A DNA stretch of 55,628 nucleotides from an uncultured Candidatus Saccharibacteria bacterium. GTDB lineage: Bacteria > Patescibacteriota > Minisyncoccia > Phycocordibacterales > PALSA-1337. The position numbers were made by a program, and so were the translations under genes. The stretch spans positions 1 through 55,628 of the forward strand of contig CAZNYP010000002.1 of the NCBI GenBank assembly GCA_964577365.1, given 5' to 3'. How positions within the stretch are numbered: the first letter of the stretch is position 1; every line of letters starts with the position of its first letter. The notes beneath the pieces are model-generated. The model did not search any database. It was not told the origin of the DNA and saw only the letters and a program-made list of their open reading frames with translations. This document shows, piece after piece, positions 16,380 through 49,775 of this stretch.

Positions 16380-17768
16380 CTATTTGCGGGGAAAGAGCAT
16401 CGGCTTTCGCTTGAGCTCGAGTGCAGTAAATATCTCTTTTGAAGTCTCTGGCATAATCGGTCCGAGGTGGTATGCGATCGTTGTGAGCTCGCTCAGCAGA
16501 TAAACCAGATCCTTTGTCGCAGCAGTAACATCTGTTTTTATTTTCTTAAACGGCTCTTCTTTTTGAATATATTCATCGGCGAGGCTTATCTTTTTCCAGA
16601 TAAGATCGCAAGCTTCTTTTATATTAAAACGCTCGAGGGCAGAGACAAACTCTGGAGAAAATTCGGTCTTTTGGATCGTGATGGGAATATTGTTAGCCAA
16701 GATCATCTGGATGATGCGACTCGAGAGATTACCGATACCATTTGCGAGGTTAGCATTGTATGAAGTCTTGAATGACTCGTGGGTAAAGTCACTGTCCTCA
16801 AACGGATTGAACTCGCGAGCTACGTGATAGCGCACTGCTTCTGCTCCATATGTGTTTACGAGATCCTGTGGGCTCACTACATTACCCAGACTCTTTGACA
16901 TCTTTTGACCCCCGACCGTGATAAAACCGTTGATGATGATGTGTGCTGATGGCTCCATACCTGCAGCGAGGAGCATGGCCTGCCACATCGCTGACTGCTG
17001 GCGGAGGTTGTCCTTTCCGCAGTACTGCACTGCTTCGTGCCATTTTTCTTTATCAAAAATATAGTTCACAAGCGCATCGAACCACACATACATGACCTGT
17101 GTCTCATCCCCAGGTACTGGCACTCCCCATGACATCTTTTCTTTGAGACGTGAGATACTGAAATCTTCGAGACCACGTTTTACAAACGCTTTTATCTCAT
17201 TGAAACGAAAATCGGGGATGACGAGTGTCGGATTCTTTTCATAAAGATCAATGAGTGGTTTCTGGAACTTTGAAAAAGCAAAGAAATAATTTTCTTCATC
17301 GATGAGCTCGATATCGAGGTTCGGATGGAGCTCGCATTTGCCTTGTACTAGCTCTGAATCAGTTTTTTCGAGCTCGCAACCGACGCAGTATTTGACTTGG
17401 TATTTCTTCTTGTAAATAAATCCATTTTTATTGCATGTCTCCCAAAAGGCCTGGGCATTCTTCTTGTGTTCTGGATTTGTCGTACGGACAAAATGCACAT
17501 CGGGTGAGACGTGGAGTGCGGGGATGAGGTCCTTAAAGTGCTGTGCAAAATCATCTACGTATTTTTGTGGATCCACATTTAGCTCTGTGGCTTTTCGATA
17601 TATCTTTACTCCATGTTCATCGGTACCTGTATTGAAAAAGACATCGTACCCCTGGGCTTTTTTAAATCGCGCGATGACATCCGCACGGATGAGTTCCATA
17701 GCAAAACCGATATGGGGCTCGCCATTTACGTACGGCAGTGTGGTGGTGATATAAAAAGGTTTAGACAT
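16380..17768 (-). CDS. metG: methionine--tRNA ligase (core enzyme, no C-terminal tRNA-binding domain)
   Basis: PYVNGEPHIGF (HIGH-type), KMSKSLGN, and a CVGC zinc knuckle. About 462 aa from ATG 17768. Confidence 0.95.
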   Translation of the reverse strand: MSKPFYITTTLPYVNGEPHIGFAMELIRADVIARFKKAQGYDVFFNTGTDEHGVKIYRKATELNVDPQKYVDDFAQHFKDLIPALHVSPDVHFVRTTNPEHKKNAQAFWETCNKNGFIYKKKYQVKYCVGCELEKTDSELVQGKCELHPNLDIELIDEENYFFAFSKFQKPLIDLYEKNPTLVIPDFRFNEIKAFVKRGLEDFSISRLKEKMSWGVPVPGDETQVMYVWFDALVNYIFDKEKWHEAVQYCGKDNLRQQSAMWQAMLLAAGMEPSAHIIINGFITVGGQKMSKSLGNVVSPQDLVNTYGAEAVRYHVAREFNPFEDSDFTHESFKTSYNANLANGIGNLSSRIIQMILANNIPITIQKTEFSPEFVSALERFNIKEACDLIWKKISLADEYIQKEEPFKKIKTDVTAATKDLVYLLSELTTIAYHLGPIMPETSKEIFTALELKRKPMLFPRK

Positions 17769-18759
17769 GTGTATTTCGTCGCTTTTCCACATCATTTACA
17801 TATTCCATAAGCGCTGCAGAGAGCGGAACAGCGAGGATCGCACCCAAGAATCCTGCGAGCTTTGCACCGATGATGAGGGCGAGGATGACGATGATCGGAG
17901 AGATACCTACAATTTTCTTTACCACGAGTGGGTAAAAGAGATGGTTTTCAAACTGGTGGATGATGACATAGAGGATGAGGACCGATATACCGAGTGAGAC
18001 TCCCCCATCCATAAATGAGATGGCGAGTGCAGGGATCGATGCGAGGATCGGACCAAAGACTGGAATGATCTCAAAGAGTGCTGCGAGCGTCGCGAGGAGG
18101 AGTGCATGTCGCACACCGATGATGGTGAGGCCGAGGTACACGAGAACTCCCACGATAAAAGCGAGTACGAGCTGCCCTTGCATCCAGTACCCCATTTTTG
18201 CCTGAGAACGTCTCCATAGATCGATGATATATTCCTGTTTGCTATCGGGTGTGATGATACGGAGAAAATTCCCCACTCCATCCTCTTGTACTGCGAGATA
18301 AAACGAGAGCACGATCATCAAAACAAGACTGAGTACTCCACCGAATACGAGACTCACCGTCTTAAAGGTTCCCTCTCCAGTACCGGTGATCACGCTACTG
18401 ATGTCTGATACGAATTCTTTTAGTGGGAAACTTTTTTCAGACGTACTATCAGTACCCCAGAGATCACTCACACTGATGCTTTCAGGTAAATTGTTGAGAT
18501 ACCCCACTGTCTCGCTCAAGAGTGATGGGATAAAAAACAGGAAAAAGCCCGCGAGGAGTGATCCGATCGCGATATAGGTCACGAGCACTCCTGGTAGGCG
18601 CTTTATCTTGTACTGGTCAAACCACTTGATGATAGGTTCGACTGACGAGGCGATGACAATAGCTGCGAGTACCACGAGGATCACATCCCTGATGTAGTAG
18701 AGAGCAACAAAGAGACCCGATATGAGGATGACGCGTACGATACTTCCAGTGGTGATCAT
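17761..18759 (-). CDS. AI-2E/PerM family membrane transporter
   Basis: 332 aa, about 8 TM helices, with the conserved IPVFGPILASIPA segment typical of UPF0118/AI-2E. Confidence 0.85.
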   Translation of the reverse strand: MITTGSIVRVILISGLFVALYYIRDVILVVLAAIVIASSVEPIIKWFDQYKIKRLPGVLVTYIAIGSLLAGFFLFFIPSLLSETVGYLNNLPESISVSDLWGTDSTSEKSFPLKEFVSDISSVITGTGEGTFKTVSLVFGGVLSLVLMIVLSFYLAVQEDGVGNFLRIITPDSKQEYIIDLWRRSQAKMGYWMQGQLVLAFIVGVLVYLGLTIIGVRHALLLATLAALFEIIPVFGPILASIPALAISFMDGGVSLGISVLILYVIIHQFENHLFYPLVVKKIVGISPIIVILALIIGAKLAGFLGAILAVPLSAALMEYVNDVEKRRNTHV

Positions 18760-18777
18760 ACCTCAATCCTACCACAT

Positions 18778-20040
18778 TTATATTTTCAATAAAGGAAGGA
18801 GTGTTTCAGACTGATACCCCTTACCTACAATAGCTAGGTTTAGGTTTTTTTCTATAAAAATCTCCTGGGCTACTTTTCTGATATCCTCGGCTGTGATCGC
18901 ACGGATCTTTTTCTCCATATCTGCAAATGTATCGATTTTCCCTTTCAAAATTTCCTGAATCACAATAAATTCTGCCTGGGCATCAGAACTCTCGAGTGAG
19001 AGTGAAGTAGAGCCAATGATATTGTTTTTGGTTCGTTCGAGCTCCTCATCTGATACCAGGTCTGTCTTTAGTTTTCTGCATTCTTCGAGAAGTACCGTGA
19101 TCACTTCATTGAGGCGCTTGCTATCGACTCCCGCAGAGATCGCAAAAACTCCGTGGTCAGTATACGTATCTTGGGCAGCATGCACATAGTATCCCACCCC
19201 CATCTCTTCGCGGAGTTTCATAAAGAGGCGTGAGCTCATGCCAGCACTCAAAATACCTGCGAGCATTTGGATCGCGGTGCTTTCTCGAGTCGCTCCAAAA
19301 CTTCTGAATCCAAGAACGAGATGTGTCTGGTCGGTATCTTTTCCAAAAATTTTAAGGGCTGGAGTGGTCTGTGTCTCTACGACTGGTTCTTTTGTCGAGC
19401 GCACCTTGCTCGGTACATTTCCAAAAAGTTTTTCCACTTTTTCTACCGCTGCATCATCAAACTTTCCTGAGATAACGACGATCGCGTGTGCCGGGGTGTA
19501 TTTTTGAGCAAAATAGTTTACAAAATTGTCCCGGTTAAATGAACTGACCGTAGCCTCAGTACCGATGATGTGACGACCTGCGGGCGTATCCCCATATAGC
19601 AAATCAGAAAAGACATACTGGATATTTCGCTGAGGTACATCACGAATCATGCGCATTTCTTCGATGATGACTCCCTTTTCCTTTTCTATTTCCCTTGCAT
19701 CAAATAACGGGTTTAGATAAATATCCGAGACCACGTCGATCGCTGTGTTGAGGAATTCTGGAGCGACTTTTGCATAATACCCAGTATATTCATGACTCGT
19801 AAATGCATTGTAGTGCGCACCGATACTATCGAGCTCTTTGGTGATGTGAAATGAAGTTGGGCGATTTTTTGTGCCCTTAAAGACCATGTGCTCGAGAAAG
19901 TGTGCGAGACCCCCCTCCTCTTTTTTCTCAAACTTTGACCCTGTATCAGACATGACCATAAAGGTCGTCGACGCAGCGTCTTTGACAGGTATAGTGACGA
20001 TGCGGAGGCCGTTAGGCAATACTTTTTTTGAGTAGTTCAT
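18778..20040 (-). CDS. M16 (pitrilysin) family zinc peptidase
   Basis: 420 aa with the inverted zinc motif HFLEHMVFKGT (HxxEH). Confidence 0.9.
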   Translation of the reverse strand: MNYSKKVLPNGLRIVTIPVKDAASTTFMVMSDTGSKFEKKEEGGLAHFLEHMVFKGTKNRPTSFHITKELDSIGAHYNAFTSHEYTGYYAKVAPEFLNTAIDVVSDIYLNPLFDAREIEKEKGVIIEEMRMIRDVPQRNIQYVFSDLLYGDTPAGRHIIGTEATVSSFNRDNFVNYFAQKYTPAHAIVVISGKFDDAAVEKVEKLFGNVPSKVRSTKEPVVETQTTPALKIFGKDTDQTHLVLGFRSFGATRESTAIQMLAGILSAGMSSRLFMKLREEMGVGYYVHAAQDTYTDHGVFAISAGVDSKRLNEVITVLLEECRKLKTDLVSDEELERTKNNIIGSTSLSLESSDAQAEFIVIQEILKGKIDTFADMEKKIRAITAEDIRKVAQEIFIEKNLNLAIVGKGYQSETLLPLLKI

Positions 20041-21280
20041 GTAGTTCTGTTATGGTTACGCGTTTTTGCTCACCAGTGTCTCGATCGCGCACGGTCACGG
20101 TACCATCCTTTTCGATCGTATCAAAGTCGATCGTCACGCAGTATGGAGTACCTACTTCGTCTTGTCGGCGATATCGTTTACCGATATTTCCATTGTCGTC
20201 GAAAACGACGCCCGGGATAATTGATTTCAATTCTTTGTATACCTCACGTGCTTTTTCGACGAGGAGCGGCTTGTTTTTGAGGAGTGGGAAAACAGCTACT
20301 TTTACTGGAGCGACTTTTGGGGCAAATTTTAGATATGTGCGGAGCTCTCCACCCAACATGTCTTCGGTATATGCATCACAAAGAATAGCGAGCATGAGTC
20401 TGCCGAGACCAAATGTAGGTTCGATACAGTGTGGTATATAACGAGATTTTGTTTCTTCGTCGAAATATGAGAGATCGACACCCGATGCAGTGCTGTGGTT
20501 TCTCAAATCAAAATCAGTACGATATGCGAGACCGAGGAGCTCCTTTTGACCCATTGGAAAGTCAAACTCAGTATCGACACTGTGTTTCGAATAGTGCGCA
20601 CGATCCTCTGGTGCGATGTCTACCTGGTGGATATGATCTTTGTTCAGGCCAAGTTCGAGGAGAAAATCTACCTGTTCTTTTTGGAATGCTTTAAATACCT
20701 CTTCCCATGCATCTGGTTTTACAAAGTATTCGATCTCCATCTGCTCGAGCTCGCGGACACGGAAAAGAAAGTCTCGGGGTGCGATCTCGTTTCGAAATGC
20801 CTTACCGATCTGTGCCATACCAAACGGGAGTTTTGGATGAAACGAGTCGAGTACATTTTTAAAGTTTACAAACATACCCTGCGCTGTTTCTGGGCGGAGA
20901 TATATACCGTTTGCTTCGTACATCATGTTGAACTGCTTTTCTTCGCCGAGCTCTCCCCCACATTCTGGACATTTCTTTTTATTTTCGAGATGATCTGCAC
21001 GGAATCTCTTTTTACATTTTTTACATTCAACGAGTGGGTCGGTAAATCCATCGACGTGACCTGAGGCTTTCCAAACTGATGGATTCATGAGGATAGAGGC
21101 GTCCATACCGTACATGTCCTCTCGATCAGTTACAAAGCGTTTCCACCAGATATTTTCGATATTTTTCTTGAGGAGTACTCCGAGAGGTCCATAGTCAAAC
21201 GTACCAGCGAGACCGCCATAGATTTCGGATCCTTGGTATATAAAACCTCTTTGTTTTGCGAGTGATATGATTTTTTCCAT
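20012..21280 (-). CDS. glyQS: glycine--tRNA ligase (class II, homodimeric type)
   Basis: GFIYQGSEIYGGLAGTFDYGPLG N-terminus, CKKCKKRFRADH...CPECG zinc ribbon, FRNEIAPR motif 2. Confidence 0.95.
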   Translation of the reverse strand: MEKIISLAKQRGFIYQGSEIYGGLAGTFDYGPLGVLLKKNIENIWWKRFVTDREDMYGMDASILMNPSVWKASGHVDGFTDPLVECKKCKKRFRADHLENKKKCPECGGELGEEKQFNMMYEANGIYLRPETAQGMFVNFKNVLDSFHPKLPFGMAQIGKAFRNEIAPRDFLFRVRELEQMEIEYFVKPDAWEEVFKAFQKEQVDFLLELGLNKDHIHQVDIAPEDRAHYSKHSVDTEFDFPMGQKELLGLAYRTDFDLRNHSTASGVDLSYFDEETKSRYIPHCIEPTFGLGRLMLAILCDAYTEDMLGGELRTYLKFAPKVAPVKVAVFPLLKNKPLLVEKAREVYKELKSIIPGVVFDDNGNIGKRYRRQDEVGTPYCVTIDFDTIEKDGTVTVRDRDTGEQKRVTITELHELLKKSIA

Positions 21281-23190
21281 TATGGTGCGATTATTTCGTC
21301 CCCACTTTTAAACTGTGGGTCGTTGCTGAATCGAGTCGTGAGCTCGCGTCGGGTAGATTCTAGCTTTGCTCCAGTGAATATGTCAACTGCAGAGAACGAT
21401 GTCTCACCGACGAGCTCGACGAGACTGCGACCAACCTGGTTCACACTCGGTTCAAAAGAGATCTGAAAGGCGACTTCGCGTCGTACGTTTCCAAAACCTG
21501 TGTATGCTGGTATATCCCCCGCTTTCCAGGTAACTTCGCCATTTTTCTGATTGTAGGCAATGTCTTCACCAGTAGGACTGACTTTGCTCACCCATTTTAC
21601 GTATGGAGGAAGAATGGCCTTGACCTCGGCATTTGATATAGCGCTCGACGTGTTTGCGATAGTCCAGACGACCGTGTATGTGGTCTGCTGCTCGGCGCGT
21701 GGCGGTACAGGTCCAGTGTTTTCAAACGGACCAGTCGAGCGTACGATCTGGGCAGAGAGTCCTGCACTCGATGCGATGCGCACGGTGCGTACTGCACTCG
21801 AAGTGAGGCTCTCCGGTACATTTTGTTCTGCGATGCGGCGAGCTTTTACGTCGACATTTATAGTCATTGTCGGATTTGTAGCAGCTGCTTTTGATCGAGG
21901 GGTAAAGCTAAATGTAACGCTACCGCTTTCCCCTGGAGCGATACTGCGGAGTTCGGGTGTCGTCTGGGTATTCCAGATGATCTCATTGTCTGCTGATCTG
22001 AAAAGTCCTTCTTCTGGCTCAACAGAATTTTTATCAAAAACAATTCCAGAAAACTTTACGCGGATCTCAGCATCAGTCACGGCTACAGGCAGGTTGTTGT
22101 ACCACTGCACCTCGACCGGCACATTCGCATCATACTGTGAGACATAGTCACTCGTATCAGAGTTGCCCTGGAGGACGAGTTTTGTACTGAGGAATGGTTT
22201 GCGGATACGTACTGACTGTGACGATGAGACGAACTCGGTAGCGATCGTGCGTTCATCCTTTAGACTCTGCAAACCTGTCGCAAAACGAAATACGCGCTCT
22301 TCATCATCCTGTCCTTCGATGCGGCCACGAATTTTTATAATCTTTTTTTCCTGAGGTTTTAGATCGCCGAGTTTCCACGTACCGTTGTCACCTAGTGGTT
22401 TTACATCAGAACCCGTAAAGGTAAATCCAAATGGATAGTAGACTTTGAGGAGCATGTCCTTGAGTACCTGATTTGAATTTGAAGAAACCTGAATATTGAA
22501 CTCCATCTCCTGGTTTGACTGGATTTCTTTGTACGAATTCACTGCGAGCGAGACAGGTGCAGCACTGATGAGTACTTCGTATGGTTTTTCTTTGTAGTAT
22601 CGCGCATTTGATCCTTTGATACGATAGTCTACCTTTATCATGATGGTCTTTTTACTATTCTCTTCACCGTAAAGGATGGTACGGACGGTCTTTTGTGCAA
22701 AAGAACCCGGCTCGATGTTTGGCAAAATCTCTTGGAATCGCGGGTATTCAGAGCCAGTGTCTGGATGCACGGTACCTCCTGGGAATTCGATCGTCATATC
22801 TACGACCTCGAGTGTGATGTTGTTTTTATTGTATACCTGTATATCAAAAGGAAATTCCTCCCCTGCTCCGACTGACAAAGGACCGGTCACTGAGATATCT
22901 ATATTTTCTGCAGACACGATATTTGCACCTTTGAACAAAAGAAAAAGACCGATACCTGATGCAAGTATGAAAAATACGAGAGAACCGATAAAGAATTTTG
23001 TAAAAAATGACATACGATCGTCTGTGTATTCGATAGACTGTTCGGTCAAGCGCTCCTCAGGGTGCACCCAGTCGGTAGGTACATCCTGGGTCTCTTTCGA
23101 GAGCACCCCTGCCTTGTGATGAGCGATATTGGGCGCCGAGCGTGAATAGAGGCCTTTTTGGAGCTTTGAGAGCTTGCTTTCTTCGTTCAT
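21280..23190 (-). CDS. large hypothetical envelope protein (one N-terminal TM helix, repeated beta-sandwich-like ectodomains)
   Basis: 636 aa. TM segment FFTKFFIGSLVFFILASGIGLFLLF, then beta-rich repeats. Its stop overlaps the glyQS start (TAATG). ATG is preceded by TGATATAAT + 7 nt. Confidence 0.8.
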   Translation of the reverse strand: MNEESKLSKLQKGLYSRSAPNIAHHKAGVLSKETQDVPTDWVHPEERLTEQSIEYTDDRMSFFTKFFIGSLVFFILASGIGLFLLFKGANIVSAENIDISVTGPLSVGAGEEFPFDIQVYNKNNITLEVVDMTIEFPGGTVHPDTGSEYPRFQEILPNIEPGSFAQKTVRTILYGEENSKKTIMIKVDYRIKGSNARYYKEKPYEVLISAAPVSLAVNSYKEIQSNQEMEFNIQVSSNSNQVLKDMLLKVYYPFGFTFTGSDVKPLGDNGTWKLGDLKPQEKKIIKIRGRIEGQDDEERVFRFATGLQSLKDERTIATEFVSSSQSVRIRKPFLSTKLVLQGNSDTSDYVSQYDANVPVEVQWYNNLPVAVTDAEIRVKFSGIVFDKNSVEPEEGLFRSADNEIIWNTQTTPELRSIAPGESGSVTFSFTPRSKAAATNPTMTINVDVKARRIAEQNVPESLTSSAVRTVRIASSAGLSAQIVRSTGPFENTGPVPPRAEQQTTYTVVWTIANTSSAISNAEVKAILPPYVKWVSKVSPTGEDIAYNQKNGEVTWKAGDIPAYTGFGNVRREVAFQISFEPSVNQVGRSLVELVGETSFSAVDIFTGAKLESTRRELTTRFSNDPQFKSGDEIIAP

Positions 23191-23203
23191 TCGATAAATT
23201 ATA

Positions 23204-23686
23204 TCACAATTGGCTCGCCTTTAGACCTTGGTTAATGAGGTGAATTATTTTCTGTTTATCTGCGTTTACAACTTCTTTTTCATCGATATACCCGAGCTCA
23301 ATCAGAATTTTTGTCATTATTTCTGTCTCATCTATATCATTAAATAGTTTTTCTTTTAGAAAATCAAAAAGTGTAACATGCTCCCCTTCCCCTTGTAGCA
23401 GACGCTTGAGGATTGAGAGTATTTGGACATAGAGCGGGTGTCGACTGGTCTGCAGTGCCTGAGCACTGGTGAGACGCCAAAACTCTTTTCCTTTGACCAA
23501 AGAAATTGATGCTAAAGAAAACTCAGTGAGGTGTCCTCGTAGTTTTGATTTTGCGAGTCGTACCCCCTGAGCAGTCGCATAGATCACACCGAACTCTCTC
23601 GTAAAAATACAGTACAATCTATTTGCCTCACCATGTGGAGAGGTAGACAAAATAAACCCTTCAGTCGTGTAGACTGTATAGGACAT
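23204..23686 (-). CDS. recO: DNA repair protein RecO (short form, OB-fold plus helical part, no zinc finger)
   Basis: 160 aa; N-terminal TEGFILSTSPHGEANRLYCIFTREFGVIYATAQGVR resembles the RecO OB fold. Confidence 0.6.
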   Translation of the reverse strand: MSYTVYTTEGFILSTSPHGEANRLYCIFTREFGVIYATAQGVRLAKSKLRGHLTEFSLASISLVKGKEFWRLTSAQALQTSRHPLYVQILSILKRLLQGEGEHVTLFDFLKEKLFNDIDETEIMTKILIELGYIDEKEVVNADKQKIIHLINQGLKASQL

Positions 23687-26600
23687 TAGCGTACGATAGT
23701 TATGATATACGTTTCGAGATCGTGGGGCGTGTAGGTCACGTCTTTTATCTGCGCGATCTTGGTGAGTGTTGCGCGATGTGCTTCGATAATCGTCTGCAGA
23801 GATTGGTTCGCAGTGACTGCAAGCGAGACCACCTCGCCCACAGACAGCCCCGCTTCTTTTCGGGCCTCCTGTACATCCCGGAGAAATTCGCGAAAGTCTC
23901 CCTCCTGTTTTAGATCTTCAGTCACAGTGGTATCGAGGAGGATCTCTCCTTCGAGATTTTTAGAGACCATGATCTGTTTTACATTTACCTCTGCCATGAT
24001 GAGTGGAATGAGATCTGCAGCAATGTCTTCATGGATATTGAGGGTGTAGAGTGGCTGACGAACTTTTATGCCTGCCTTTGCACGCGCCTCGAGACCGAGA
24101 GTGACGATGTCGCGCACCTTCTGCATATCGGTGAGAACTTTTTCATGTATCTTTTTACTCTCTGGCCATGACTGCATGTGGACACTGTCGATATTGCCGA
24201 GTCGCATATACATATCCTCGGCAAAAAATGGCATAAATGGAGCAATCACTTTTGCAAACTCACTGAGAACGGTGCGTGTAGTCGATACCGCTTGCATATC
24301 ACCATCCTTGAAACGATCACGTGAGCGACGGAGATACCAGGTCGACAGATCGTCGACAAAGTCATTTATCGGACGAGTGGCAGTGTGGAGCTCGTATTTT
24401 TCCATACCCTTTGTGATCTCGGTTATAGTTTGATTGAGACGCTCGAGTATCCAGAGGTCGAGAGGATCAGTCGAGACGACATGTCCATCTTTTTTATACA
24501 TTTCATAGAATGAGACGACATTGTCGAGGCGATTGATCACTTTTTTCACTACTTCATCGACGCCTTTTTCTGAGAAACGCACATCCTCCCCTGCCATCGC
24601 TGGTGAAAGGAGCATGAAATATCGCACCGCATCTGCACCATATTTGTTCGCAACATCCATGAGATCTGGATAGTTTTGCAATCGCTTAGACATCTTGCGC
24701 CCGTCTTCAGCGAGGACGAGTCCGTTTACAATGACGTTTTGATACGGAGATTCTCCAAATAATGCAGTCCCGAGTACGAGCATAGAGTAAAACCATCCTC
24801 GAGTCTGGTCGAGTCCTTCGGCGATGAACTGTGCCGGGTATCCTTTTATTTTTCCAAACCACTTTGGACGCACTGACTGTGAAGCAAATGGCATCGATCC
24901 TGACTCGAACCAACAATCAAAGACTTCTGGAACACGTCGCATCTCATTCCCTTTTGAGTCGTGGAGGATCACCTCGTCGATATATGGACGATGAAAGTCG
25001 ATCATGTACTCGCGGTTTCGCGGAAGCTGAGTAAAGTGGAGTGCACGTATCTCGGCATTTTCAAATAAAGCCTCCTCGCAGTCATCGTCTTTTCCTTTTG
25101 ATAACGATTGAAGGATCTTTAGCGGAGTATTGTGACTGATAACGAGGATATTTTTTTCTGTATACTTTTTATCTATTTCATATATAAAAGCACCGACACG
25201 CTTTCGCACTTCAGACAGCGTCTCGAGCCCAGCTATTTTTCGTTCAAACCACTCTTTGCGATCGCTGTACATATTTAAAATATCTGACCATGATTTGCCA
25301 TCAAAGCTCATTGCCCCTACCTCCACGAGACGAGTATCCTCGATCACCTGTTCTGGTTTCAGGCCTAGCGTCTCTGCCACTATTTTTGCAGTTTCTTTTG
25401 TGCGGAAAAACGGAGAGATGTAGACGACATCAATCTTTTTATCTTTGAGTGCTTCGGCTGATTTGTGGACTTGTTTTTTCCCCTCCTCAGTCAGTCCTTC
25501 TTTTTTATTTACATCTGCACTGATGAGATTGTTTTTATTACTTTCGATCTCACCGTGACGCATAACAAAAATATTGTTGCGTGGCTTGCATGCATTTTTA
25601 ATATCAGAAAGTGAGGCAATGATCTTTGTCTCTGTCTTACTCTTCCAGACCGGTAGTGGTGCTCCCCAGTATCGACTGCGAGAGATCGCCCAGTCACGTG
25701 CTCCTTCGAGCCAGTTTCCAAAACGATTTTTTCCCACTGATTCGGGCACCCAGTTTACCTTTTTATTTTCTGAGACAAGTTTGTTTTTAAAATCAGGTAC
25801 TTTTACAAACCATGACGAAGACGCATAGTTTAAAAGCGGTGTGTCACAACGCCAACAATGCGGATACGAGTGGACCAATTTTTCTTTTGCAAATAGAGTC
25901 CCTTTACCTGCGAGATATTTGATCACCTCGACATCGGTGCGCTGATGATCATCCTTTGGTTTTGCATCGAGTCCTTCAAACGGCGCTGTAGTCATTTTTC
26001 CGTCTGGGGTGACGTGCTGGATGAATTTGAGATCGTGTTTTTTGCCGAGCTCGTAGTCGTCTTGTCCAAATGCTGGAGCAATGTGGACGATACCCGTACC
26101 GTCAGTAGTCGTTACAAAATCGGCGGGATATACTTTTCCCTCTTTTATAAATGCATCGAATACAGGCACGTAGGTTTTACCGACGAGATTTTTTCCAAGT
26201 ATTTCTTTTTCTACAGTGTATTCTTCTTTTATGACCGAGAGTCGATCTTTTGCGAGGATATATGACGCATCTCGTATTTTTATTTGTACATAGGTGATAT
26301 CGGCGCCTACTGCGAGTGCAGCGTTCCCCTGGAGTGTCCATGGAGTCGTCGTCCATGCGAGGAGGAATAGATGTGGTTCGATTTGGAATTTTACATACAC
26401 CGAAATATCAGTGATGTCTTTGTATCCCTGATTTACTTCAAAGTTTGAAAGTGTCGTACCGCACCGAGGGCAGAGCTGCATACTCTTGTACCCTTCGTAA
26501 ACGAGACCTTTATCATGTAGTGTTTTAAACGCCCACCAGACCGACTCGGTATATGATGAGTCCATGGTCTTGTAGCTATTATCCATATCAGCCCAGCGAC

Positions 26601-27000
26601 CAAAACGTGGGATGACTTCTTTCCAAATATGTTCATACCGGAGCACTGCCTCGCGCGCAGCTTCGTTGAATTTCTCTATACCCAGGTCCTCGATGTCTTT
26701 CTTCGTCTTGAGACCGAGCTCTTTTTCGATAAGGTTTTCAAGTGGTAGTCCGTGACAGTCCCATCCCCATCGTCGTGGAACATGATACCCCTGCATCGTT
26801 TTGTAGCGAGGGATCGCATCCTTTATCGTTCCTGGCAAAATATGTCCGTAGTGCGGTGTACCGGTAGCAAACGGTGGTCCATCATAAAATACAAACTCGC
26901 CTTTTGGTGAGGCTTTCTGTAGGGTCTTTTCAAATGTTTTATCCTGCTTCCAGTAGTTGAGTATTCGCTCTTCTCTCTCAGCATGAGGGGACTTGTCCAT
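23686..27000 (-). CDS. ileS: isoleucine--tRNA ligase carrying an inserted histidine-phosphatase domain
   Basis: PPFATGTPHYGHIL (HIGH), TTTPWTLQGN editing motif, WAISRSRYWGAPLP, FDCWFESGSMPFA, KMSKRL. ATG 27000 is preceded by TGATATATT + 7 nt; the track ORF is extended to GTG 27057 through a terminator hairpin. Confidence 0.95.
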   Translation of the reverse strand: MDKSPHAEREERILNYWKQDKTFEKTLQKASPKGEFVFYDGPPFATGTPHYGHILPGTIKDAIPRYKTMQGYHVPRRWGWDCHGLPLENLIEKELGLKTKKDIEDLGIEKFNEAAREAVLRYEHIWKEVIPRFGRWADMDNSYKTMDSSYTESVWWAFKTLHDKGLVYEGYKSMQLCPRCGTTLSNFEVNQGYKDITDISVYVKFQIEPHLFLLAWTTTPWTLQGNAALAVGADITYVQIKIRDASYILAKDRLSVIKEEYTVEKEILGKNLVGKTYVPVFDAFIKEGKVYPADFVTTTDGTGIVHIAPAFGQDDYELGKKHDLKFIQHVTPDGKMTTAPFEGLDAKPKDDHQRTDVEVIKYLAGKGTLFAKEKLVHSYPHCWRCDTPLLNYASSSWFVKVPDFKNKLVSENKKVNWVPESVGKNRFGNWLEGARDWAISRSRYWGAPLPVWKSKTETKIIASLSDIKNACKPRNNIFVMRHGEIESNKNNLISADVNKKEGLTEEGKKQVHKSAEALKDKKIDVVYISPFFRTKETAKIVAETLGLKPEQVIEDTRLVEVGAMSFDGKSWSDILNMYSDRKEWFERKIAGLETLSEVRKRVGAFIYEIDKKYTEKNILVISHNTPLKILQSLSKGKDDDCEEALFENAEIRALHFTQLPRNREYMIDFHRPYIDEVILHDSKGNEMRRVPEVFDCWFESGSMPFASQSVRPKWFGKIKGYPAQFIAEGLDQTRGWFYSMLVLGTALFGESPYQNVIVNGLVLAEDGRKMSKRLQNYPDLMDVANKYGADAVRYFMLLSPAMAGEDVRFSEKGVDEVVKKVINRLDNVVSFYEMYKKDGHVVSTDPLDLWILERLNQTITEITKGMEKYELHTATRPINDFVDDLSTWYLRRSRDRFKDGDMQAVSTTRTVLSEFAKVIAPFMPFFAEDMYMRLGNIDSVHMQSWPESKKIHEKVLTDMQKVRDIVTLGLEARAKAGIKVRQPLYTLNIHEDIAADLIPLIMAEVNVKQIMVSKNLEGEILLDTTVTEDLKQEGDFREFLRDVQEARKEAGLSVGEVVSLAVTANQSLQTIIEAHRATLTKIAQIKDVTYTPHDLETYIITIVR

Positions 27001-27020
27001 AGCACTCAATATATCAGTTT

Positions 27021-27065
27021 TGTATAAAAAGAAAAAGGCCGGCAATGTCCGTGACACTGCCGACC
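27021..27065 (-). terminator. rho-independent terminator between argS and ileS
   Basis: Minus strand reads GGUCGGCA-13 nt-UGCCGGCC followed by UUUUUCUUUUU. Confidence 0.75.
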
Positions 27066-27162
27066 TCGAGATCTCCGTCCGTTATCTCCCAGCTCCAACC
27101 AAGGGGAGAGACACCGAACGCTGGCCCACAAGTACTCTAGCACGCTCATCCAGATCCGTCAA

Positions 27163-28746
27163 CTACATGTTGCTTGGTACCTTTATGGCGAGTACTTTGA
27201 GGCCGTTTTCCATAGTATGGGCAAATGCTTTGGTGAGTGCCAGGCGATACCCGGTATCCTCCCCTGCATCGAGGATTTTGTTGTGGGCATAGTAGTTGTT
27301 AAAGGCACTTGCGAGCTCAAGGAGGTAGGTCACGATATGATGTGGTGCGTATTCGGTCTGAGCGCGAAGGACGATCTCTGGAAATCGCACAAGGATGTGA
27401 TCGAGGTCGCTCACGGCTGCACGCTCGATCGGTGTAGTCTGTGCTTTGGCCAAAATACTTCGAGCACGGACCGTAGCGTACTGGAGATACGGTCCCGAGT
27501 CCCCTTCAAATGACACCGACTGCTCACGGTCAAAAATAATATCGCCACCCACTGCCTGACGGAGTACTGAAAACTTGATCGCACCGATAGCAATCGCCTC
27601 GGTATCAGACTCAGCGTTTTTTTCTTTTACTACTTCCTGAATATCCTTTATCAGATCCTCACCAGCGATGATATTCCCCTTTCGAGAAGACATTTTACCC
27701 TCTGCAAAACGGAGCATGCCGTGACCGAATTGTTTGATGTTGTATTTTGGATCGATTTTCTGTAGCGCCTCTTTTACCACTCTAAAATAATCATTTTGTT
27801 CGTTCCCAGTGATGATGAGTGAAAAAGCAAGATGGGGAAACTCGCTGAATTTCTTTGTGGTCAGACCGAGCTCTTTTGCTTCGTATGTTGGCAACCCTTT
27901 CGAGTTTAAAAATACACGAGTGTGTGAGCCTTTGAATACGGTGGCTCCTTCACTTTGTTCAAATACCTGCGGATTATCTTTTACCATTTTGATTCCATCC
28001 TGTGCTACTTCACTTTCAAAAAAGTATTTATCAAAATGAGTATCGAGTTTTTTATAAATACTTTCAAAATATTCCAGACTCAAAGCACGACCGAGATCGT
28101 AGTATTTGTTTACTTCTGGATCAGACTTCTCAAAAATCTTTTTGTTGAGTTCATCAATTTCTGCTTTATTGTTTTCGTACTCATTATTTCCGATTACGTA
28201 TATCTTCCCCCAATATTCGATGGTGTTTTGGAAATTCTCCTTGTCTTTAAGTAGTGCCCAAATAGCTTTGGCTACATGCAGCCCCACATCACCCTGGTAG
28301 CAGTCTCGGATCACCTTAGCTCCACCGAATTCAATGAGTCGTGCAAAGGTCTCGCCTATCGCATTGTTCATAAGGTGACCGATGTGGAATACCTTGAATG
28401 GATTTGGATTCGTATACTCAACCATTACCTCCTGACCTTTATAGAGATCATTCTTCCCCACCTCCGCAGTTGTCGCTTTTATTTTATTTGAAATATAGTC
28501 GTCTGATAGAAAAAAGTTTATGTATCCTGGACCTGCGATCTCTACCTTTGATATTTCTTTTGGAAGCGAGAGTCCTGCGACGATTTTTTCTGCTGCCTGT
28601 TTTGGAGACATTTTCCACTCTTTGGCGAGCGCAAAAGCAACCGGAGACGCATAGTCACCCTGGGCAAAATTTTCGGTATGAGAAAGGGGAATGGTGATCG
28701 TTTCACCCACCGCCTTTTGTAGCGTATTCTTAATGAGGTCTTGCAT
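27163..28746 (-). CDS. argS: arginine--tRNA ligase
   Basis: NPNPFKVFHIGHL (HIGH-type), MSSRKGN (KMSK-type), and a C-terminal anticodon-binding DALR-like region. ATG 28746 is preceded by TGCTATATT + 6 nt. Confidence 0.95.
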   Translation of the reverse strand: MQDLIKNTLQKAVGETITIPLSHTENFAQGDYASPVAFALAKEWKMSPKQAAEKIVAGLSLPKEISKVEIAGPGYINFFLSDDYISNKIKATTAEVGKNDLYKGQEVMVEYTNPNPFKVFHIGHLMNNAIGETFARLIEFGGAKVIRDCYQGDVGLHVAKAIWALLKDKENFQNTIEYWGKIYVIGNNEYENNKAEIDELNKKIFEKSDPEVNKYYDLGRALSLEYFESIYKKLDTHFDKYFFESEVAQDGIKMVKDNPQVFEQSEGATVFKGSHTRVFLNSKGLPTYEAKELGLTTKKFSEFPHLAFSLIITGNEQNDYFRVVKEALQKIDPKYNIKQFGHGMLRFAEGKMSSRKGNIIAGEDLIKDIQEVVKEKNAESDTEAIAIGAIKFSVLRQAVGGDIIFDREQSVSFEGDSGPYLQYATVRARSILAKAQTTPIERAAVSDLDHILVRFPEIVLRAQTEYAPHHIVTYLLELASAFNNYYAHNKILDAGEDTGYRLALTKAFAHTMENGLKVLAIKVPSNM

Positions 28747-28774
28747 GAGAGAAATATAGCATTTTTGTTCTATA

Positions 28775-28809
28775 TATAAAAGAAGTCTCGGCACGATTGC
28801 GCCGAGACT
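28775..28809 (-). terminator. rho-independent terminator of the 28838..29362 orphan gene
   Basis: 9-bp stem AGTCTCGGC (28784-28792) / GCCGAGACT (28801-28809), followed on the minus strand by UUCUUUUAU. Confidence 0.7.
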
Positions 28810-28837
28810 GTCCAAAGTTCATATTTCTAGATCCTAC

Positions 28838-44637: not shown

Positions 44638-45165
44638 TTACAACCAGTCCAATTTGATTACCTCCGCATTTGCATATGCAGGTAAATCGTAAAATAGTTC
44701 GGGATCACCACCAGTTCTAATAGTCTCGATCACTCGTCCGACACCCGCATGACATACCATCAAAATGGTTTCGTCTTTGCCCTTCCAGTCATTTAGAAAA
44801 GAGTGTACACGCTCGAGGAATTTTTGTGGATTCTCGGCGTTTTCAGCCTGAATCATTTTCTTTGAGGTAATCTCGACTGTAGGTGTTCCTGTCAGATTCC
44901 CCATATCATACTCGGTGATGCGTGGATCGATCTCGATCTCTTTGGTATATCCAATAATCTCTGCCACAATTGCCGCAGTGTCTTTTGCGCGAATGAGTGG
45001 TGAGCTCACGATATGGTCGATCTTTAGTCCCATTTCTTTTATCTTATTCCCCTCTCCTTTTGCCTGCGCTCGTCCTTTTTCAGTGAGTGGCGAATCGTCT
45101 TTTTGTCCTGCAAATACATGCTTTAGATTAGCCTCACTTTCTCCGTGTCGTATAAAGTAAATCAT
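44638..45165 (-). CDS. histidine phosphatase family protein (phosphoglycerate-mutase-like, branch 1)
   Basis: 175 aa; MIYFIRHGESEAN (RHG), SSPLIRAKDTA, MVCHAGV. Confidence 0.9.
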   Translation of the reverse strand: MIYFIRHGESEANLKHVFAGQKDDSPLTEKGRAQAKGEGNKIKEMGLKIDHIVSSPLIRAKDTAAIVAEIIGYTKEIEIDPRITEYDMGNLTGTPTVEITSKKMIQAENAENPQKFLERVHSFLNDWKGKDETILMVCHAGVGRVIETIRTGGDPELFYDLPAYANAEVIKLDWL

Positions 45166-45172
45166 GAAAGGA

Positions 45173-45556
45173 TTATACTATGTATGGCACAAAAATAAAT
45201 AACCCAACAATCGCCGCAGTGATCGCAGAGATGAGTACTGCTCCCGCTGCCACGTCTTTTGTATCACGTGCATACGGATGATACTCCGGTGAGGTGAGGT
45301 CTATGTCGATCTCGATTGCAGTGTTAAACGCTTCCGCCACAAAAACAAATCCTCCAGTCAATACGAGAATCATCCACTCGATGTGAGTAATTTCGGAATA
45401 AAAACCTAGGCCAATAGCCAGAAGGAGTACGAGCACATGTATCCAGGCATTGTGTGTCGTCTTTAGAAAAAGGCGCACTCCTCTCCCTGCATGTGAAAAA
45501 CTCTGGGCACGTTTGAGGAGAGAAAATTCTTCTTTTGTATCAATTCGTTGTTCCAT
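45173..45556 (-). CDS. dgkA: prokaryotic diacylglycerol/undecaprenol kinase family protein
   Basis: 127 aa, 3 TM helices; VAEAFNTAIE...ARDTKDVAAGAVL matches the DAGK_prokar signature. Confidence 0.8.
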   Translation of the reverse strand: MEQRIDTKEEFSLLKRAQSFSHAGRGVRLFLKTTHNAWIHVLVLLLAIGLGFYSEITHIEWMILVLTGGFVFVAEAFNTAIEIDIDLTSPEYHPYARDTKDVAAGAVLISAITAAIVGLFIFVPYIV

Positions 45557-46360: not shown

Positions 46361-46384
46361 ATATAGATATTATCATATTGCGTG

Positions 46385-46456
46385 GGTGACTACTGGGAGT
46401 TGAACCCAGACTAAGAGCTCCACAAGCTCGTGTGCTACCGCTACACCATAGCCACC
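46385..46456 (-). tRNA. tRNA-His (anticodon GTG), with genome-encoded G-1
   Basis: Reverse complement GGTGGCTATGGTGTAGCGGTAGCACACGAGCTTGTGGAGCTCTTAGTCTGGGTTCAACTCCCAGTAGTCACC folds as a cloverleaf. Anticodon loop TTGTGGA. Confidence 0.9.
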
Positions 46457-46476
46457 ATATTACATTTTACTCACGG

Positions 46477-46560: not shown

Positions 46561-46602
46561 ATGTAACCCCACCACTATAACAAAATCTGGTTTTTAATCA
46601 AA

Positions 46603-46627: not shown

Positions 46628-46628
46628 A

Positions 46629-47021: not shown

Positions 47022-47053
47022 ACGTAGAGCCAAATCTAACATAAAGCCCTTAT

Positions 47054-49774: not shown

Positions 49775-49775
49775 A

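What the first reader, a model, noticed from the sequence alone, without database searches (positions are those of the whole stretch)
25003..25578. Complete histidine-phosphatase (RHG) domain inserted into the catalytic core of isoleucyl-tRNA synthetase
The IleRS is colinear with class Ia IleRS through HIGH (PHYGHIL), the editing domain (TTTPWTLQGN, GTGIVHIAPAFG) and WAISRSRYWGAPLPVW. In eukaryote-like IleRS, about 30 residues normally link ...PLW...IGS..EL... to DLHR..ID (from memory of the human enzyme). Here about 190 extra residues sit between IIASLSDIKNACKPR and NREYMIDFHRPYIDEV. These are ORF-track residues ~494-685, nt 25578-25003.

The insert has every hallmark of branch-1 histidine phosphatases (phosphoglycerate-mutase-like):
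- FVMRHGE, with the R-H-G codons at 25560-25552.
- LTEEGKKQ.
- YISPFFRTKETA (second Arg).
- RLVEVGAMSFDGKSW (Glu).
- LVISHNTPL (second His).

Because these catalytic residues are intact, the domain is probably active. The reading frame is continuous, and normal IleRS sequence resumes afterwards (FDCWFESGSMPFA, KMSKRL). A stand-alone paralog-like gene at 44638..45165 shares block motifs with the insert (RHGE, LTE.G, SP..R.K.TA.IVAE), which suggests the insert arose from a duplicated resident gene. I do not know of a described aaRS with an embedded phosphatase. Its substrate is open; candidates include a tRNA end phosphate, an adenylate or dinucleotide polyphosphate by-product, or an inhibitor. 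Those suggestions are speculation.
Basis: partly seen in the sequence, partly recalled or inferred. Interest (0 to 1): 0.8.

Follow-up and report, generated by a model that had tools for sequence, protein, structure and literature searches.

The report
Phosphatase domain nested inside isoleucyl-tRNA synthetase
This tiny-genome (CPR/Patescibacteria) bacterium makes an isoleucyl-tRNA synthetase with a complete, apparently active histidine phosphatase built into it; relatives either do the same or encode that phosphatase as a separate gene directly in front of the synthetase gene, which suggests an undescribed phosphate-removing step linked to isoleucine charging.

Summary
The minus-strand ORF 23686..27057 (protein from Met at 27000, 1104 aa) is a bona fide type-2 IleRS. 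A complete branch-1 histidine phosphatase (HP; residues 475-662, nt 25015..25578; Pfam E 4e-31) replaces the tip of a ~28-aa zinc hairpin in connective peptide CP2.

It is not a misassembly. More than 300 distinct database clusters and at least 80 GTDB species (Paceibacteria/Parcubacteria, Gracilibacteria, Peregrinibacteria) share the architecture. The catalytic set R-H-R-E-H is intact in about 97% of copies.

New findings:
- The insert's closest free relatives (~190 aa, 36% identical) lie immediately upstream of insert-less ileS (42 of 70 loci; some stop/start overlaps ATGA). Another 10 of 70 are nested independently in the same loop of a different IleRS clade.
- The upstream gene and the nested domain are mutually exclusive.
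- Other lineages carry 2-4 HP copies, in tandem or at three further sites.
- The resident paralog at 44638..45165 (28% identical) is not the source.

Best reading: HP is a conserved, catalytically active partner of IleRS that has repeatedly become covalently nested. Its substrate is unknown. I found no literature on it. This is a new variant of a known kind; interest 0.75.

The parts
23686..27000 (-). ileS: type-2 (eukaryote-like) isoleucyl-tRNA synthetase with nested phosphatase, 1104 aa plus stop. The mechanical ORF extends to a GTG at 27057.
   Evidence: Continuous ORF. NCBIfam ileS equivalog TIGR00392 scores 841.9 bits against a cut-off of 621.4. The best solved relatives are IleRS2 8c8u and yeast 8wnd. 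An identical 1104-aa protein is called in a public assembly.
25645..27000 (-). IleRS N-terminal part, residues 1-452: first half of the Rossmann/HUP fold with HIGH (HYGH, 26842..26853), CP1 with the editing domain, and CP2 up to ...WGAPLPVW.
   Evidence: Pfam tRNA-synt_1 covers ORF residues 32-493. Aligned to 8c8u residues 10-460. HIGH verified. The CP1 zinc ligands CPRC and CWRC are present and invariant in the 45-sequence alignment.
25579..25644 (-). Ascending arm of the CP2 hairpin, acting as N-linker (residues 453-474, KSKTETKIIASLSDIKNACKPR). The CxxC zinc ligands present in many relatives are lost here.
   Evidence: Alignments. Model pLDDT is about 86-91.
25015..25578 (-). Nested branch-1 histidine phosphatase domain (residues 475-662). 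Catalytic R481-H482 (25555..25560), N488, R533 (25402..25404), E560 (25321..25323), H623 (25132..25134).
   Evidence: Pfam His_Phos_1 E 1e-32. The AlphaFold model has pLDDT 94.3 and pTM 0.91. Foldseek TM-score is 0.83 to the PspA phosphoserine phosphatase 4ij6. Catalytic residues are invariant in 120 close homologs and intact in nearly all of 283 + 110 copies. Codons verified.
24994..25014 (-). C-linker (residues 663-669, REYMIDF), which follows the conserved 'LP(H/R)N' exit motif and leads into the descending arm of the CP2 hairpin (HRPYID).
   Evidence: P660 is 99% conserved, N662 95% and H670 100%. A similar 'IPLN/HPYN' motif occurs in an independently nested clade.
23686..24993 (-). IleRS C-terminal part, residues 670-1104: second half of the Rossmann/HUP fold (DCWFESG pocket helix; KMSKR at 24682..24696), anticodon-binding domains and the type-2 C-terminal DUF5915 domain.
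   Evidence: Pfam tRNA-synt_1 (second stretch), Anticodon_1 and DUF5915. Aligned to 8c8u residues 485-887. KMSKR verified.
44638..45165 (-). Separate 175-aa His_Phos_1 gene. It is a distant paralog, not the donor of the insert and not part of the IleRS unit. Listed because the finding cites it.
   Evidence: Pfam E 6e-34. It is 28% identical to the insert. It lies beside DAGK_prokar and LMWPc genes rather than ileS.

Best explanation
The gene encodes a working type-2 IleRS whose CP2 zinc hairpin carries a complete, catalytically competent branch-1 histidine phosphatase (HP).

HP is not a random passenger. In this part of the CPR radiation, HP and IleRS form a conserved two-component unit that exists in two interchangeable genetic forms:
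(a) a ~190-aa HP gene abutting or overlapping the start of an insert-less ileS;
(b) HP nested inside IleRS.

The nested form arose several times: at least twice in the same CP2 loop within Paceibacteria, again in Gracilibacteria/Peregrinibacteria, and at three other loops, sometimes as 2-4 divergent copies.

Mechanism. Inferred from the family: His482 attacks a phosphomonoester to form a phospho-histidine intermediate. R481, R533 and H623 hold the phosphate, and E560 acts as the acid/base. Inferred from the comparative data: the free HP docks on IleRS at or near the CP2 hairpin, about 25 residues before the pocket-forming DCWFESG helix, and nesting simply makes that complex covalent.

My committed guess for the target is a phosphorylated ligand that IleRS itself binds. 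The favourite is a 2'/3'-phosphorylated, and therefore unchargeable, 3' end of tRNA-Ile, or a nucleotide monophosphate-type ligand at the synthetic site. The target is not shown.

Rough probabilities:
- real, active, IleRS-linked phosphatase: about 0.8
- acts on an IleRS-bound ligand rather than on an unrelated metabolite: about 0.45
- specifically a tRNA 3'-end phosphate: about 0.2
For: Shown here:
- IleRS identity and intact HIGH/KMSKS motifs.
- The HP domain is significant and well folded. The full-length model keeps the IleRS fold (TM-score 0.78-0.87 to IleRS2 structures) with HP as a confident lobe.
- The catalytic residues are essentially invariant: 100% in 120 homologs; nearly all of 283 copies, including every copy in multi-HP proteins; 107 of 110 in the second lineage.
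- HP and the IleRS body co-diverge (r = 0.87). The length of the insert region is tightly fixed at 224-226 aa in 92 of 120 sequences.
- Gene linkage: 5 of 6 looked-up stand-alone HP genes sit directly before insert-less ileS in the same ArgRS-[HP]-IleRS-RecO synteny as the window. Stop and start overlap as ATGA in two of them.
- In an unbiased scan, 42 of 70 loci have HP directly upstream of ileS, 10 of 70 have HP nested, and 18 of 70 are unlinked.
- The two forms are mutually exclusive: 87 of 91 loci (the 80 nested loci, the window and 10 contexts fetched earlier) hold a single HP within +/-6 kb. Of the four with two, two are nested loci with an extra copy (L056, L076).
- Independent nesting: the L137/L139/L153 IleRS bodies are 59-62% identical to the insert-less L082 IleRS but 42-44% to the window's. 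Their HP is of the upstream-gene type.
- Multi-site and multi-copy variants exist: B+D, B,B, B,B,B, site C and site A. Copies within one protein are at most 35-45% identical.
- The architecture occurs in at least 80 GTDB species.
Against: - No substrate evidence of any kind.
- The closest structures are small-metabolite phosphatases (PspA, PhoE, GpgP, CobC, a riboflavin-pathway phosphatase). No equivalog model is reached.
- The nested HP domains are not basic (mean net charge about -1, pI about 7.2, like the IleRS body), so nothing suggests an RNA-binding surface of their own.
- 26% of the closest free HP genes are not next to ileS.
- Insert-less Peregrinibacteria ileS genes have no HP nearby, so IleRS does not universally need HP.
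- HP evolves faster than IleRS (47% against 66% mean identity).
- By fold topology, the active site lies at the end of strand beta1 opposite both termini.
Confidence: 0.5

Rival explanations
1. Hitch-hiking housekeeping phosphatase. HP is an ordinary small-metabolite phosphatase that merely shares an operon with ileS. In-frame capture into permissive surface loops of a highly expressed essential protein gives fixed co-expression in regulation-poor, streamlined genomes. There is no chemical link to aminoacylation.
For: - The best structural and sequence neighbours are metabolite phosphatases.
- HP works as a free protein in many lineages, and 18 of 70 free copies are unlinked to ileS.
- The insertion sites are loops. 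Site C is a disordered loop at residues 709-717 in the model. Site D lies where the window protein lacks 26 alignment columns that 118 of 120 relatives fill.
- HP evolves faster than the IleRS body.
Against: - Nesting inside an essential enzyme is risky, yet it was fixed repeatedly, at least twice in the same loop, and at several sites that flank the synthetic-site elements.
- Up to 3-4 old, divergent, catalytically intact copies are kept in one IleRS.
- HP-ileS adjacency persists across IleRS that are only 35% identical.
- Among the best 150 representatives, no partner other than IleRS was seen.
Confidence: 0.33
2. Regulatory or protein phosphatase. HP removes a phosphate from IleRS itself or from a partner protein, for example reversing an inhibitory kinase modification of the kind HipA-type toxins place on other aaRS (from memory). 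Alternatively, HP senses a phospho-metabolite and tunes IleRS allosterically.
For: - The superfamily includes protein phosphatases (SixA, PGAM5, Sts-1; established knowledge).
- The N-terminal half weakly matches SixA (50 bits, below the 74.5 cut-off).
- Tight physical coupling to one enzyme.
Against: - SixA membership was tested and not met.
- No kinase is conserved in the neighbourhood.
- The structural neighbours are small-molecule enzymes.
- Several tandem copies are hard to explain with a single regulatory site.
Confidence: 0.1
3. Catalytically dead structural module, or a selfish intein-like insertion that is spliced out or merely tolerated.
For: - Multiple insertions in one host gene, at several sites, recall inteins.
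- The C-terminal junction ends in H-N in most homologs.
Against: - The whole 217-aa extra segment is accounted for by the native hairpin arms plus one His_Phos_1 fold. There is no Hint or endonuclease domain.
- The residue after H-N is Glu/Arg, not Cys/Ser/Thr.
- The catalytic pentad is under strong purifying selection.
- Free-standing copies are ordinary genes.
Confidence: 0.04
4. Assembly or gene-calling artefact that joins an IleRS gene and a phosphatase gene.
For: Read-level data were not available to me.
Against: - The same in-frame junctions occur in hundreds of independent assemblies from NCBI, JGI, ENA and Logan, including a complete 0.99-Mb chromosome (CP060229.1) and contigs above 0.5 Mb.
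- The identical protein is found on another public contig.
- Base composition across the insert is unremarkable.
Confidence: 0.01

Closest known systems
Type-2 (eukaryote-like, mupirocin-resistant) IleRS, e.g. Priestia megaterium IleRS2 (PDB 8c8u/8c8v) and yeast IleRS (8wnd)
   Same: Collinear over the whole length, apart from the insert described under 'different'. It shares HIGH, KMSKS, the CP1 editing domain, the CP2 region, the anticodon domains and the type-2 C-terminal DUF5915 domain. phmmer E 1e-205. Model TM-score 0.78-0.87. NCBIfam ileS equivalog passed.
   Different: About 185 extra residues form a phosphatase fold at the tip of the CP2 zinc hairpin. The hairpin's four Cys are lost in the window protein, although many relatives keep them. 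No solved IleRS has such a lobe.
Small branch-1 histidine phosphatases: Hydrogenobacter PspA (4ij5/4ij6), Geobacillus PhoE (1h2e), mycobacterial GpgP (4qih), CobC (6nru), riboflavin-pathway HFP (9mmh)
   Same: Same fold (TM-score 0.76-0.83), the same ~190-aa minimal size, and the catalytic residues R-H-(N)-R-E-H.
   Different: Only 19-26% identical. The insert is below every NCBIfam equivalog cut-off. It is nested in, or operon-coupled to, an aaRS, and its substrate is unknown.
The ileS-upstream ~190-aa HP family of Paceibacteria (e.g. P0179, P0292, P0287)
   Same: Closest free relatives of the insert, collinear from N-x-Y-F-x-x-RHG to G-E-x-R-x-L (36-41% identical). Found in the same synteny as the window, with HP just before ileS.
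   Different: A separate polypeptide. It has RHGQT(I)HQ and RLRDxNWG variants of the motifs and lacks the LP(H/R)N exit linker. A quarter of the sampled copies are not next to ileS.
Bifunctional RNase H / acid phosphatase (Rv2228c type; NCBIfam PRK07238)
   Same: A nucleic-acid enzyme joined to a CobC-like branch-1 histidine phosphatase. It is the second-best NCBIfam match of the insert (85 bits).
   Different: That protein is an end-to-end fusion, not a nested one. The 326-bit cut-off is not reached, and the partner enzyme is different.
Other accessory catalytic domains in class Ia synthetases: the CP1 editing domain, and NCBIfam 'ileS_w_GNAT' (NF040702)
   Same: These are precedents for a catalytic domain inserted in or appended to IleRS. 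The CP1 domain is itself nested in the Rossmann fold (established knowledge). A GNAT-bearing IleRS family exists.
   Different: CP1 is universal and hydrolyses mis-acylated tRNA. GNAT is terminal. Here the domain is a phosphomonoesterase in CP2, restricted to certain lineages and variable in copy number. The window protein does not match ileS_w_GNAT (313 bits against a cut-off of 1999).

Membership tests
Isoleucyl-tRNA synthetase (class Ia), type 2 | Whole-protein match to the curated ileS equivalog model above its cut-off | tested here: met
   TIGR00392 scores 841.9 bits against a cut-off of 621.4, in two stretches interrupted by the insert.
Isoleucyl-tRNA synthetase (class Ia), type 2 | Class I signature motifs HIGH and KMSKS | tested here: met
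   HYGH at 26842..26853 and KMSKR at 24682..24696. H50, G52, K769, M770 and K772 are invariant in 45 relatives.
Isoleucyl-tRNA synthetase (class Ia), type 2 | CP1 editing domain and type-2 C-terminal domain | tested here: met
   Residues 192-381 match isolated IleRS editing-domain structures (1wk8, E 9e-33). DUF5915 is at the C-terminus. The best full-length structures are IleRS2.
Isoleucyl-tRNA synthetase (class Ia), type 2 | Isoleucylation of tRNA-Ile | not testable with these tools
   Needs an enzyme assay. Whether a second ileS exists in the genome is also unknown, because only a 55-kb window was available.
Histidine phosphatase superfamily, branch 1 (PGM-like) | Profile match above the Pfam gathering score | tested here: met
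   PF00300 scores 108.5-113.5 bits against a cut-off of 21.7 and covers profile positions 1-182 of 194.
Histidine phosphatase superfamily, branch 1 (PGM-like) | Catalytic residues: RHG nucleophile His, second Arg, acid Glu/Asp, second His | tested here: met
   R481, H482, R533, E560 and H623 are present. They are invariant or 99% conserved in 120 homologs and kept in nearly all of 393 copies.
Histidine phosphatase superfamily, branch 1 (PGM-like) | Alpha/beta PGM-like fold | tested here: met
   The model has pLDDT 94.3. Foldseek TM-score is 0.83, E 6e-15, to 4ij6, and all top hits belong to this family.
Histidine phosphatase superfamily, branch 1 (PGM-like) | Phosphatase activity | not testable with these tools
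   Needs biochemistry.
Cofactor-dependent phosphoglycerate mutase (dPGM) | Score above the curated cut-offs of the dPGM models | tested here: not met
   dPGM_arch scores 93 bits against 225. TIGR01258 pgm_1 scores 29 against 81.7. GpmB scores 43 against 261. The HGN motif after the second His is absent; the sequence here is SHNTP (the motif's role is from memory).
Phosphoserine phosphatase PspA / alpha-ribazole phosphatase CobC / SixA | Score above each equivalog cut-off | tested here: not met
   PspA scores 73 bits against 350, CobC 76 against 163, and SixA 50 against 74.5.
Intein | Hint splicing domain with N-terminal Cys/Ser, and C-terminal His-Asn followed by Cys/Ser/Thr | tested here: not met
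   Only His_Phos_1 is detected in the insert. The whole insert is one PGM-like fold. The residue after ...PRN is Arg here, and Glu in the consensus.
Conserved HP-IleRS gene pair (proposed here) | HP either directly upstream of ileS or nested in it, the two states being mutually exclusive | tested here: met
   The window has nested HP and no HP gene in the 162-nt ArgRS-ileS spacer. In relatives, 42 of 70 loci have HP upstream, 10 of 70 nested and 18 of 70 unlinked. 87 of 91 loci (80 nested loci, the window and 10 earlier contexts) hold a single HP copy within +/-6 kb.

The most novel reading that the evidence does not exclude
In a large part of the Candidate Phyla Radiation, isoleucylation includes a previously unknown phosphate-removal step. 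The IleRS-docked or IleRS-nested histidine phosphatase would clear a blocking phosphate (or pyrophosphate, by successive copies) from the 3'-terminal adenosine of tRNA-Ile, or from a nucleotide ligand in the synthetic site. That would make IleRS a combined 'repair-and-charge' enzyme. The repeated, convergent nesting in the CP2 hairpin would mark the native docking geometry.
Probability: 0.2. Interest if true: 0.92.

Novelty: new variant of a known kind. Interest (0 to 1): 0.75.

Why it matters
Aminoacyl-tRNA synthetases are among the best-studied enzymes. A second, non-editing catalytic centre inside the catalytic domain of a bacterial synthetase has, to my knowledge and in every literature search that worked, not been described.

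The comparative pattern found here is strong genomic evidence of a functional partnership:
- an operon partner in some lineages and a nested domain in others;
- nesting gained independently in the same loop;
- multiplication to as many as four intact copies.

The partnership spans hundreds of species of Patescibacteria, a group that makes up a large share of bacterial diversity and whose translation apparatus is already known to be unusual.

If the phosphatase acts on tRNA-Ile or on a ligand of the synthetic site, it would reveal a new quality-control or repair step in translation. If it is an unrelated metabolic enzyme, the system is still a rare natural series showing how one enzyme is repeatedly inserted into another without destroying it, which is useful for protein-evolution and domain-insertion engineering.

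Practically, thousands of database entries named 'class I tRNA ligase family protein' could be re-annotated. Free HP genes that have been mis-named 'isoleucyl-tRNA synthetase' (P0302) could be corrected.

Tried and rejected
- **Misassembly.** Rejected because the architecture recurs in hundreds of assemblies.
- **Recent duplication of the resident gene at 44638..45165.** Rejected: 28% identity, against 36-41% to the ileS-upstream family.
- **True phosphoglycerate mutase, PspA, CobC or SixA.** All are below the curated cut-offs.
- **Intein or mobile element.** No Hint or endonuclease domain, and the junction residues are wrong.
- **A leader RNA (T-box or similar) or a remnant HP gene between argS and ileS.** Rfam finds nothing and the spacer is only 162 nt.
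- **HP as an RNA-binding module judged by charge.** Nested copies are near neutral, like the IleRS body. The statistic for free copies was too scattered to use.
- **Upstream HP beside the insert-less Peregrinibacteria ileS.** None found within 4 kb.
- **Literature.** Five searches found nothing relevant on IleRS or aaRS combined with histidine phosphatase or CPR. Two IleRS structure and evolution papers do not mention it.
- **Failed queries.** Five later paper queries failed on a server time-out. Statements about CP2 function, toxSAS pyrophosphorylation of the CCA end and HipA-type kinases therefore rest on my memory only.
- **Geometry.** I could not obtain model coordinates, so the direction in which the HP pocket faces was not measured.
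- **An error of my own.** My first classification of the metagenome loci wrongly counted nested loci as 'no ileS downstream'. It was corrected.
Full report
**1. What is in the window**

The minus-strand ORF 23686..27057 is uninterrupted. Gene callers on an identical public contig start it at the Met at 27000, giving 1104 aa. I number residues from that Met; ORF numbering is 19 higher.

Pfam finds tRNA-synt_1 in two pieces, with His_Phos_1 between them (108.5 bits, E 4e-31). Anticodon_1 and DUF5915 follow. The protein passes NCBI's curated ileS equivalog (841.9 bits against 621.4). Its best solved relatives are type-2 IleRS: P. megaterium IleRS2 (E 1e-205), then yeast and T. thermophilus IleRS.

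R-H-G is at 25560..25552, HYGH at 26853..26842 and KMSKR at 24696..24682.

**2. Where exactly the insert sits**

Against 8c8u, query residues 455-666 replace residues 460-485. The authors of that structure define the catalytic HUP core as residues 40-168 and 513-632, with CP1/editing and CP2 in between. The insertion is therefore in CP2, not in the core strands.

Alignment with insert-less relatives shows the host element. It is a ~28-aa zinc hairpin, PxW-CxxC-x-IGSxxELK...-xLHRPxxD-x-CxxCG-x-RV. The phosphatase is spliced into its tip.

Many nested relatives keep the four Cys. The window protein has lost them. The hairpin's descending arm runs straight into DCWFESG, a pocket-forming element of class Ia enzymes (established knowledge).

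**3. The domain itself**

An AlphaFold model of residues 475-666 is confident (pLDDT 94.3, pTM 0.91). It superposes on small branch-1 histidine phosphatases: PspA (TM-score 0.83), PhoE, GpgP, CobC and a riboflavin-pathway phosphatase.

It reaches no NCBIfam equivalog cut-off. dPGM_arch scores 93 against 225, the RNase H/acid phosphatase model 85 against 326, CobC 76 against 163, PspA 73 against 350, and SixA 50 against 74.5. It is a family member of unassigned specificity and is not a mutase.

In the full-length model (pLDDT 85.5, pTM 0.75) HP is a well-ordered lobe with confident linkers. The IleRS part still matches IleRS2 structures at TM-score 0.78-0.87.

**4. Conservation**

The 120 best database relatives (53-100% identical, 1098-1213 aa) all carry PF00300. 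In them R481, H482, G483, N488, R533, E593, R601 and H623 are invariant, and E560 is 99% conserved.

The insert evolves faster than the IleRS body (47% against 66% mean pairwise identity), but the two co-diverge (r = 0.87). The length of the inserted region is nearly fixed.

Across 283 HP copies from the first two searches and 110 from a second lineage, the catalytic pentad is intact in almost all complete copies.

**5. Distribution**

It still returned 80 species with full-length coverage of the junction-spanning query. These include Taylor-, Nomura-, Kaiser- and Adlerbacteria, Paceibacterota and Minisyncoccia, with one complete 0.99-Mb chromosome among them.

Searching every 50%-identity representative with the insert alone gave 929 hits below 1e-10. 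Most of the best 150 are IleRS or IleRS fragments.

A third search, seeded with a 1419-aa variant, reached Gracilibacteria/Altimarinota and Peregrinibacteria. Of 119 IleRS there:
- 44 have no HP;
- about 43 have one HP in CP2;
- about 17 have two in tandem;
- 2 have three in tandem (1636-1654 aa);
- 12 have one in CP2 plus one after the KMSKS/stem-contact region;
- 1 has B,B,D;
- 2 have HP only in the loop after the DCWFESG helix.

One of these proteins lies on a 1.04-Mb contig, and its precomputed Pfam order confirms two separate HP domains. One representative also has an HP at the start of CP2.

Mapped onto the window protein, the four sites are:
- site A, about residues 400-410;
- site B, residues 453-669, which is the window's site;
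- site C, about residues 708-717, a disordered loop in the model;
- site D, about residues 833-842.

Copies inside one protein are only 27-45% identical to each other, so they are old and individually maintained.

**6. The key comparative result**

The closest non-IleRS relatives of the insert are true ~190-aa proteins. They run from M..N-x-Y-F-x-L-RHG to ...GELRKLN and are collinear with the insert from end to end.

Their genes lie directly upstream of insert-less ileS (949-989 aa), in the same synteny as the window: ArgRS-[HP]-IleRS-RecO-DUF11/CLIPPER protein-ProRS. In two loci the HP stop overlaps the ileS start (ATGA). One locus has two HP genes in tandem.

An independent scan of metagenome contigs with this family gave 70 interpretable loci:
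- 42 with HP immediately before ileS;
- 10 with the same HP type nested in the CP2 hairpin of IleRS;
- 18 not linked to ileS.

Conversely, 87 of the 91 loci scanned (the 80 nested loci, the window and 10 contexts fetched earlier) hold a single HP within 6 kb. Only two nested loci, L056 and L076, carry an extra copy. The window has only a 162-nt spacer between argS and ileS.

The 10 nested cases are a separate event from the window's. Their IleRS bodies are 59-62% identical to an insert-less, HP-preceded IleRS (L082) but 42-44% to the window's clade. Their HP carries the upstream-gene signature (RHGETIYQTEKK; 30-35% identical to the window insert). Both nestings end with a similar hydrophobic-Pro-x-Asn linker: LPHN/LPRN in one, IPLN/HPYN in the other.

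The insert-less IleRS that follow an HP gene are themselves as little as 35% identical to one another, so the linkage is old.

**7. Interpretation**

Shown:
- a functional-looking IleRS2;
- a folded HP with an intact catalytic apparatus under purifying selection;
- a conserved gene pair that alternates between an operon form and a nested form;
- recurrent nesting and copy multiplication.

Inferred:
- HP and IleRS act together physically;
- the CP2 hairpin marks where free HP docks;
- catalysis proceeds by the family's phospho-histidine mechanism.

Not shown: the substrate.

By fold topology, the RHG loop follows strand beta1 (476-481), and the last strand (651-654) brings the chain back. Both termini therefore lie on the side opposite the active site, and the pocket points away from the tether (inference). 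Whether it then faces the synthetic site, the editing site or solvent needs coordinates I could not access.

Sites B and C flank the pocket helix and site D follows the KMSKS region. This is compatible with a position on the rim of the synthetic site, but does not prove it.

My committed guess is a phosphorylated ligand bound by IleRS. The favourite is a 2'/3'-phosphorylated tRNA-Ile 3' end, with nucleotide monophosphates as an alternative.

The main rival is that HP is an ordinary metabolite phosphatase captured for co-expression. Supporting that rival:
- the structural neighbours are metabolite phosphatases;
- the nested copies have a neutral charge;
- a quarter of the free copies are unlinked to ileS;
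- some CPR lineages have IleRS with no HP.

**8. Comparison with what is known, and novelty**

As an IleRS the protein is a regular member of type 2. As a phosphatase it is a regular member of branch 1 with no assignable subfamily.

The combination resembles three known cases: nested CP1 editing domains; the RNase H-CobC fusion; and an NCBIfam 'IleRS with GNAT' family. It differs from all three in chemistry, position and variability.

None of the literature searches that ran found a description. A 2026 survey that annotated the domains of 96,219 IleRS does not mention a phosphatase. Databases hold the sequences under generic names, with one JGI name that notes both parts.

I therefore rate it a new variant of a known kind: real, widespread, and mechanistically unexplained.

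**9. Limits**

- There are no read data and no coordinates.
- Only a 55-kb window was available, so I cannot say whether a second ileS exists in this genome.
- Several paper queries failed.

Noticed in passing
window 44638..45989 (-): The distant His_Phos_1 paralog (44638..45165) sits in a tight cluster with a prokaryotic diacylglycerol kinase (45173..45556) and a low-molecular-weight phosphotyrosine-phosphatase/ArsC-like gene (45540..45989, overlapping the DAGK gene).
   Followed up: partly
window 16380..28815 (-): An aaRS-rich stretch on one strand: MetRS (16380..17795), a class II ProRS-like gene (20012..21280), IleRS, and ArgRS (27163..28815). The ArgRS-IleRS-RecO-DUF11/CLIPPER-ProRS order is conserved in distant Paceibacteria.
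   Followed up: partly
window 23204..23686 (-): RecO is only 160 aa here (RecO_N only), whereas relatives have 230-249 aa with RecO_C. Its start codon overlaps the ileS stop by one base.
   Followed up: no
P0180 (1066 aa, metagenome representative): An IleRS with an IS200-type Y1 transposase domain inside the editing domain (residues 340-461), HP at the CP2 site and a GNAT acetyltransferase at the C-terminus. It may be a chimeric gene call or a further accessory-domain variant. NCBIfam has a separate 'ileS_w_GNAT' model.
   Followed up: no
P0131, P0132, P0144, P0149, P0163, P0166 and others: Twelve of the 150 best representatives begin exactly at the Met of (V)MRHGE and continue into the IleRS C-terminal half. 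They may be truncated gene calls, or naturally split IleRS genes broken at the insertion.
   Followed up: no
L137, L139, L153 vs window 25015..25030: Independently nested HP domains leave the phosphatase through a similar hydrophobic-Pro-x-Asn motif (LPHN, LPRN, IPLN, HPYN). The motif is absent from free HP proteins and from insert-less IleRS. This may be a convergent structural requirement.
   Followed up: partly
L088 5001..6182: Two tandem free HP genes precede an insert-less ileS. This mirrors the tandem HP arrays nested in Peregrinibacteria IleRS.
   Followed up: partly
L090, L105, L136 (P0377-like HP genes): The subclade of free HP genes not linked to ileS is repeatedly followed by an HI0933-like FAD oxidoreductase. 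In L090 and L105 a BipA/TypA GTPase gene comes next; in L136 it does not.
   Followed up: no
P0302: A free 197-aa HP protein is named 'isoleucyl-tRNA synthetase' by JGI. This is probably annotation transfer from the nested proteins.
   Followed up: no
window 1..148 (-) and 46384..54407: The window starts inside the 5' end of a 23S rRNA gene. It carries six tRNA genes (His, Leu, Val, Arg, Ser, Arg) and no tRNA-Ile.
   Followed up: no
window 27080..27115 (-): A GC-rich inverted repeat (TCTCCC...GGGAGA) lies in the 162-nt argS-ileS spacer. It could be a terminator or attenuator-like hairpin. There is no Rfam match.
   Followed up: no
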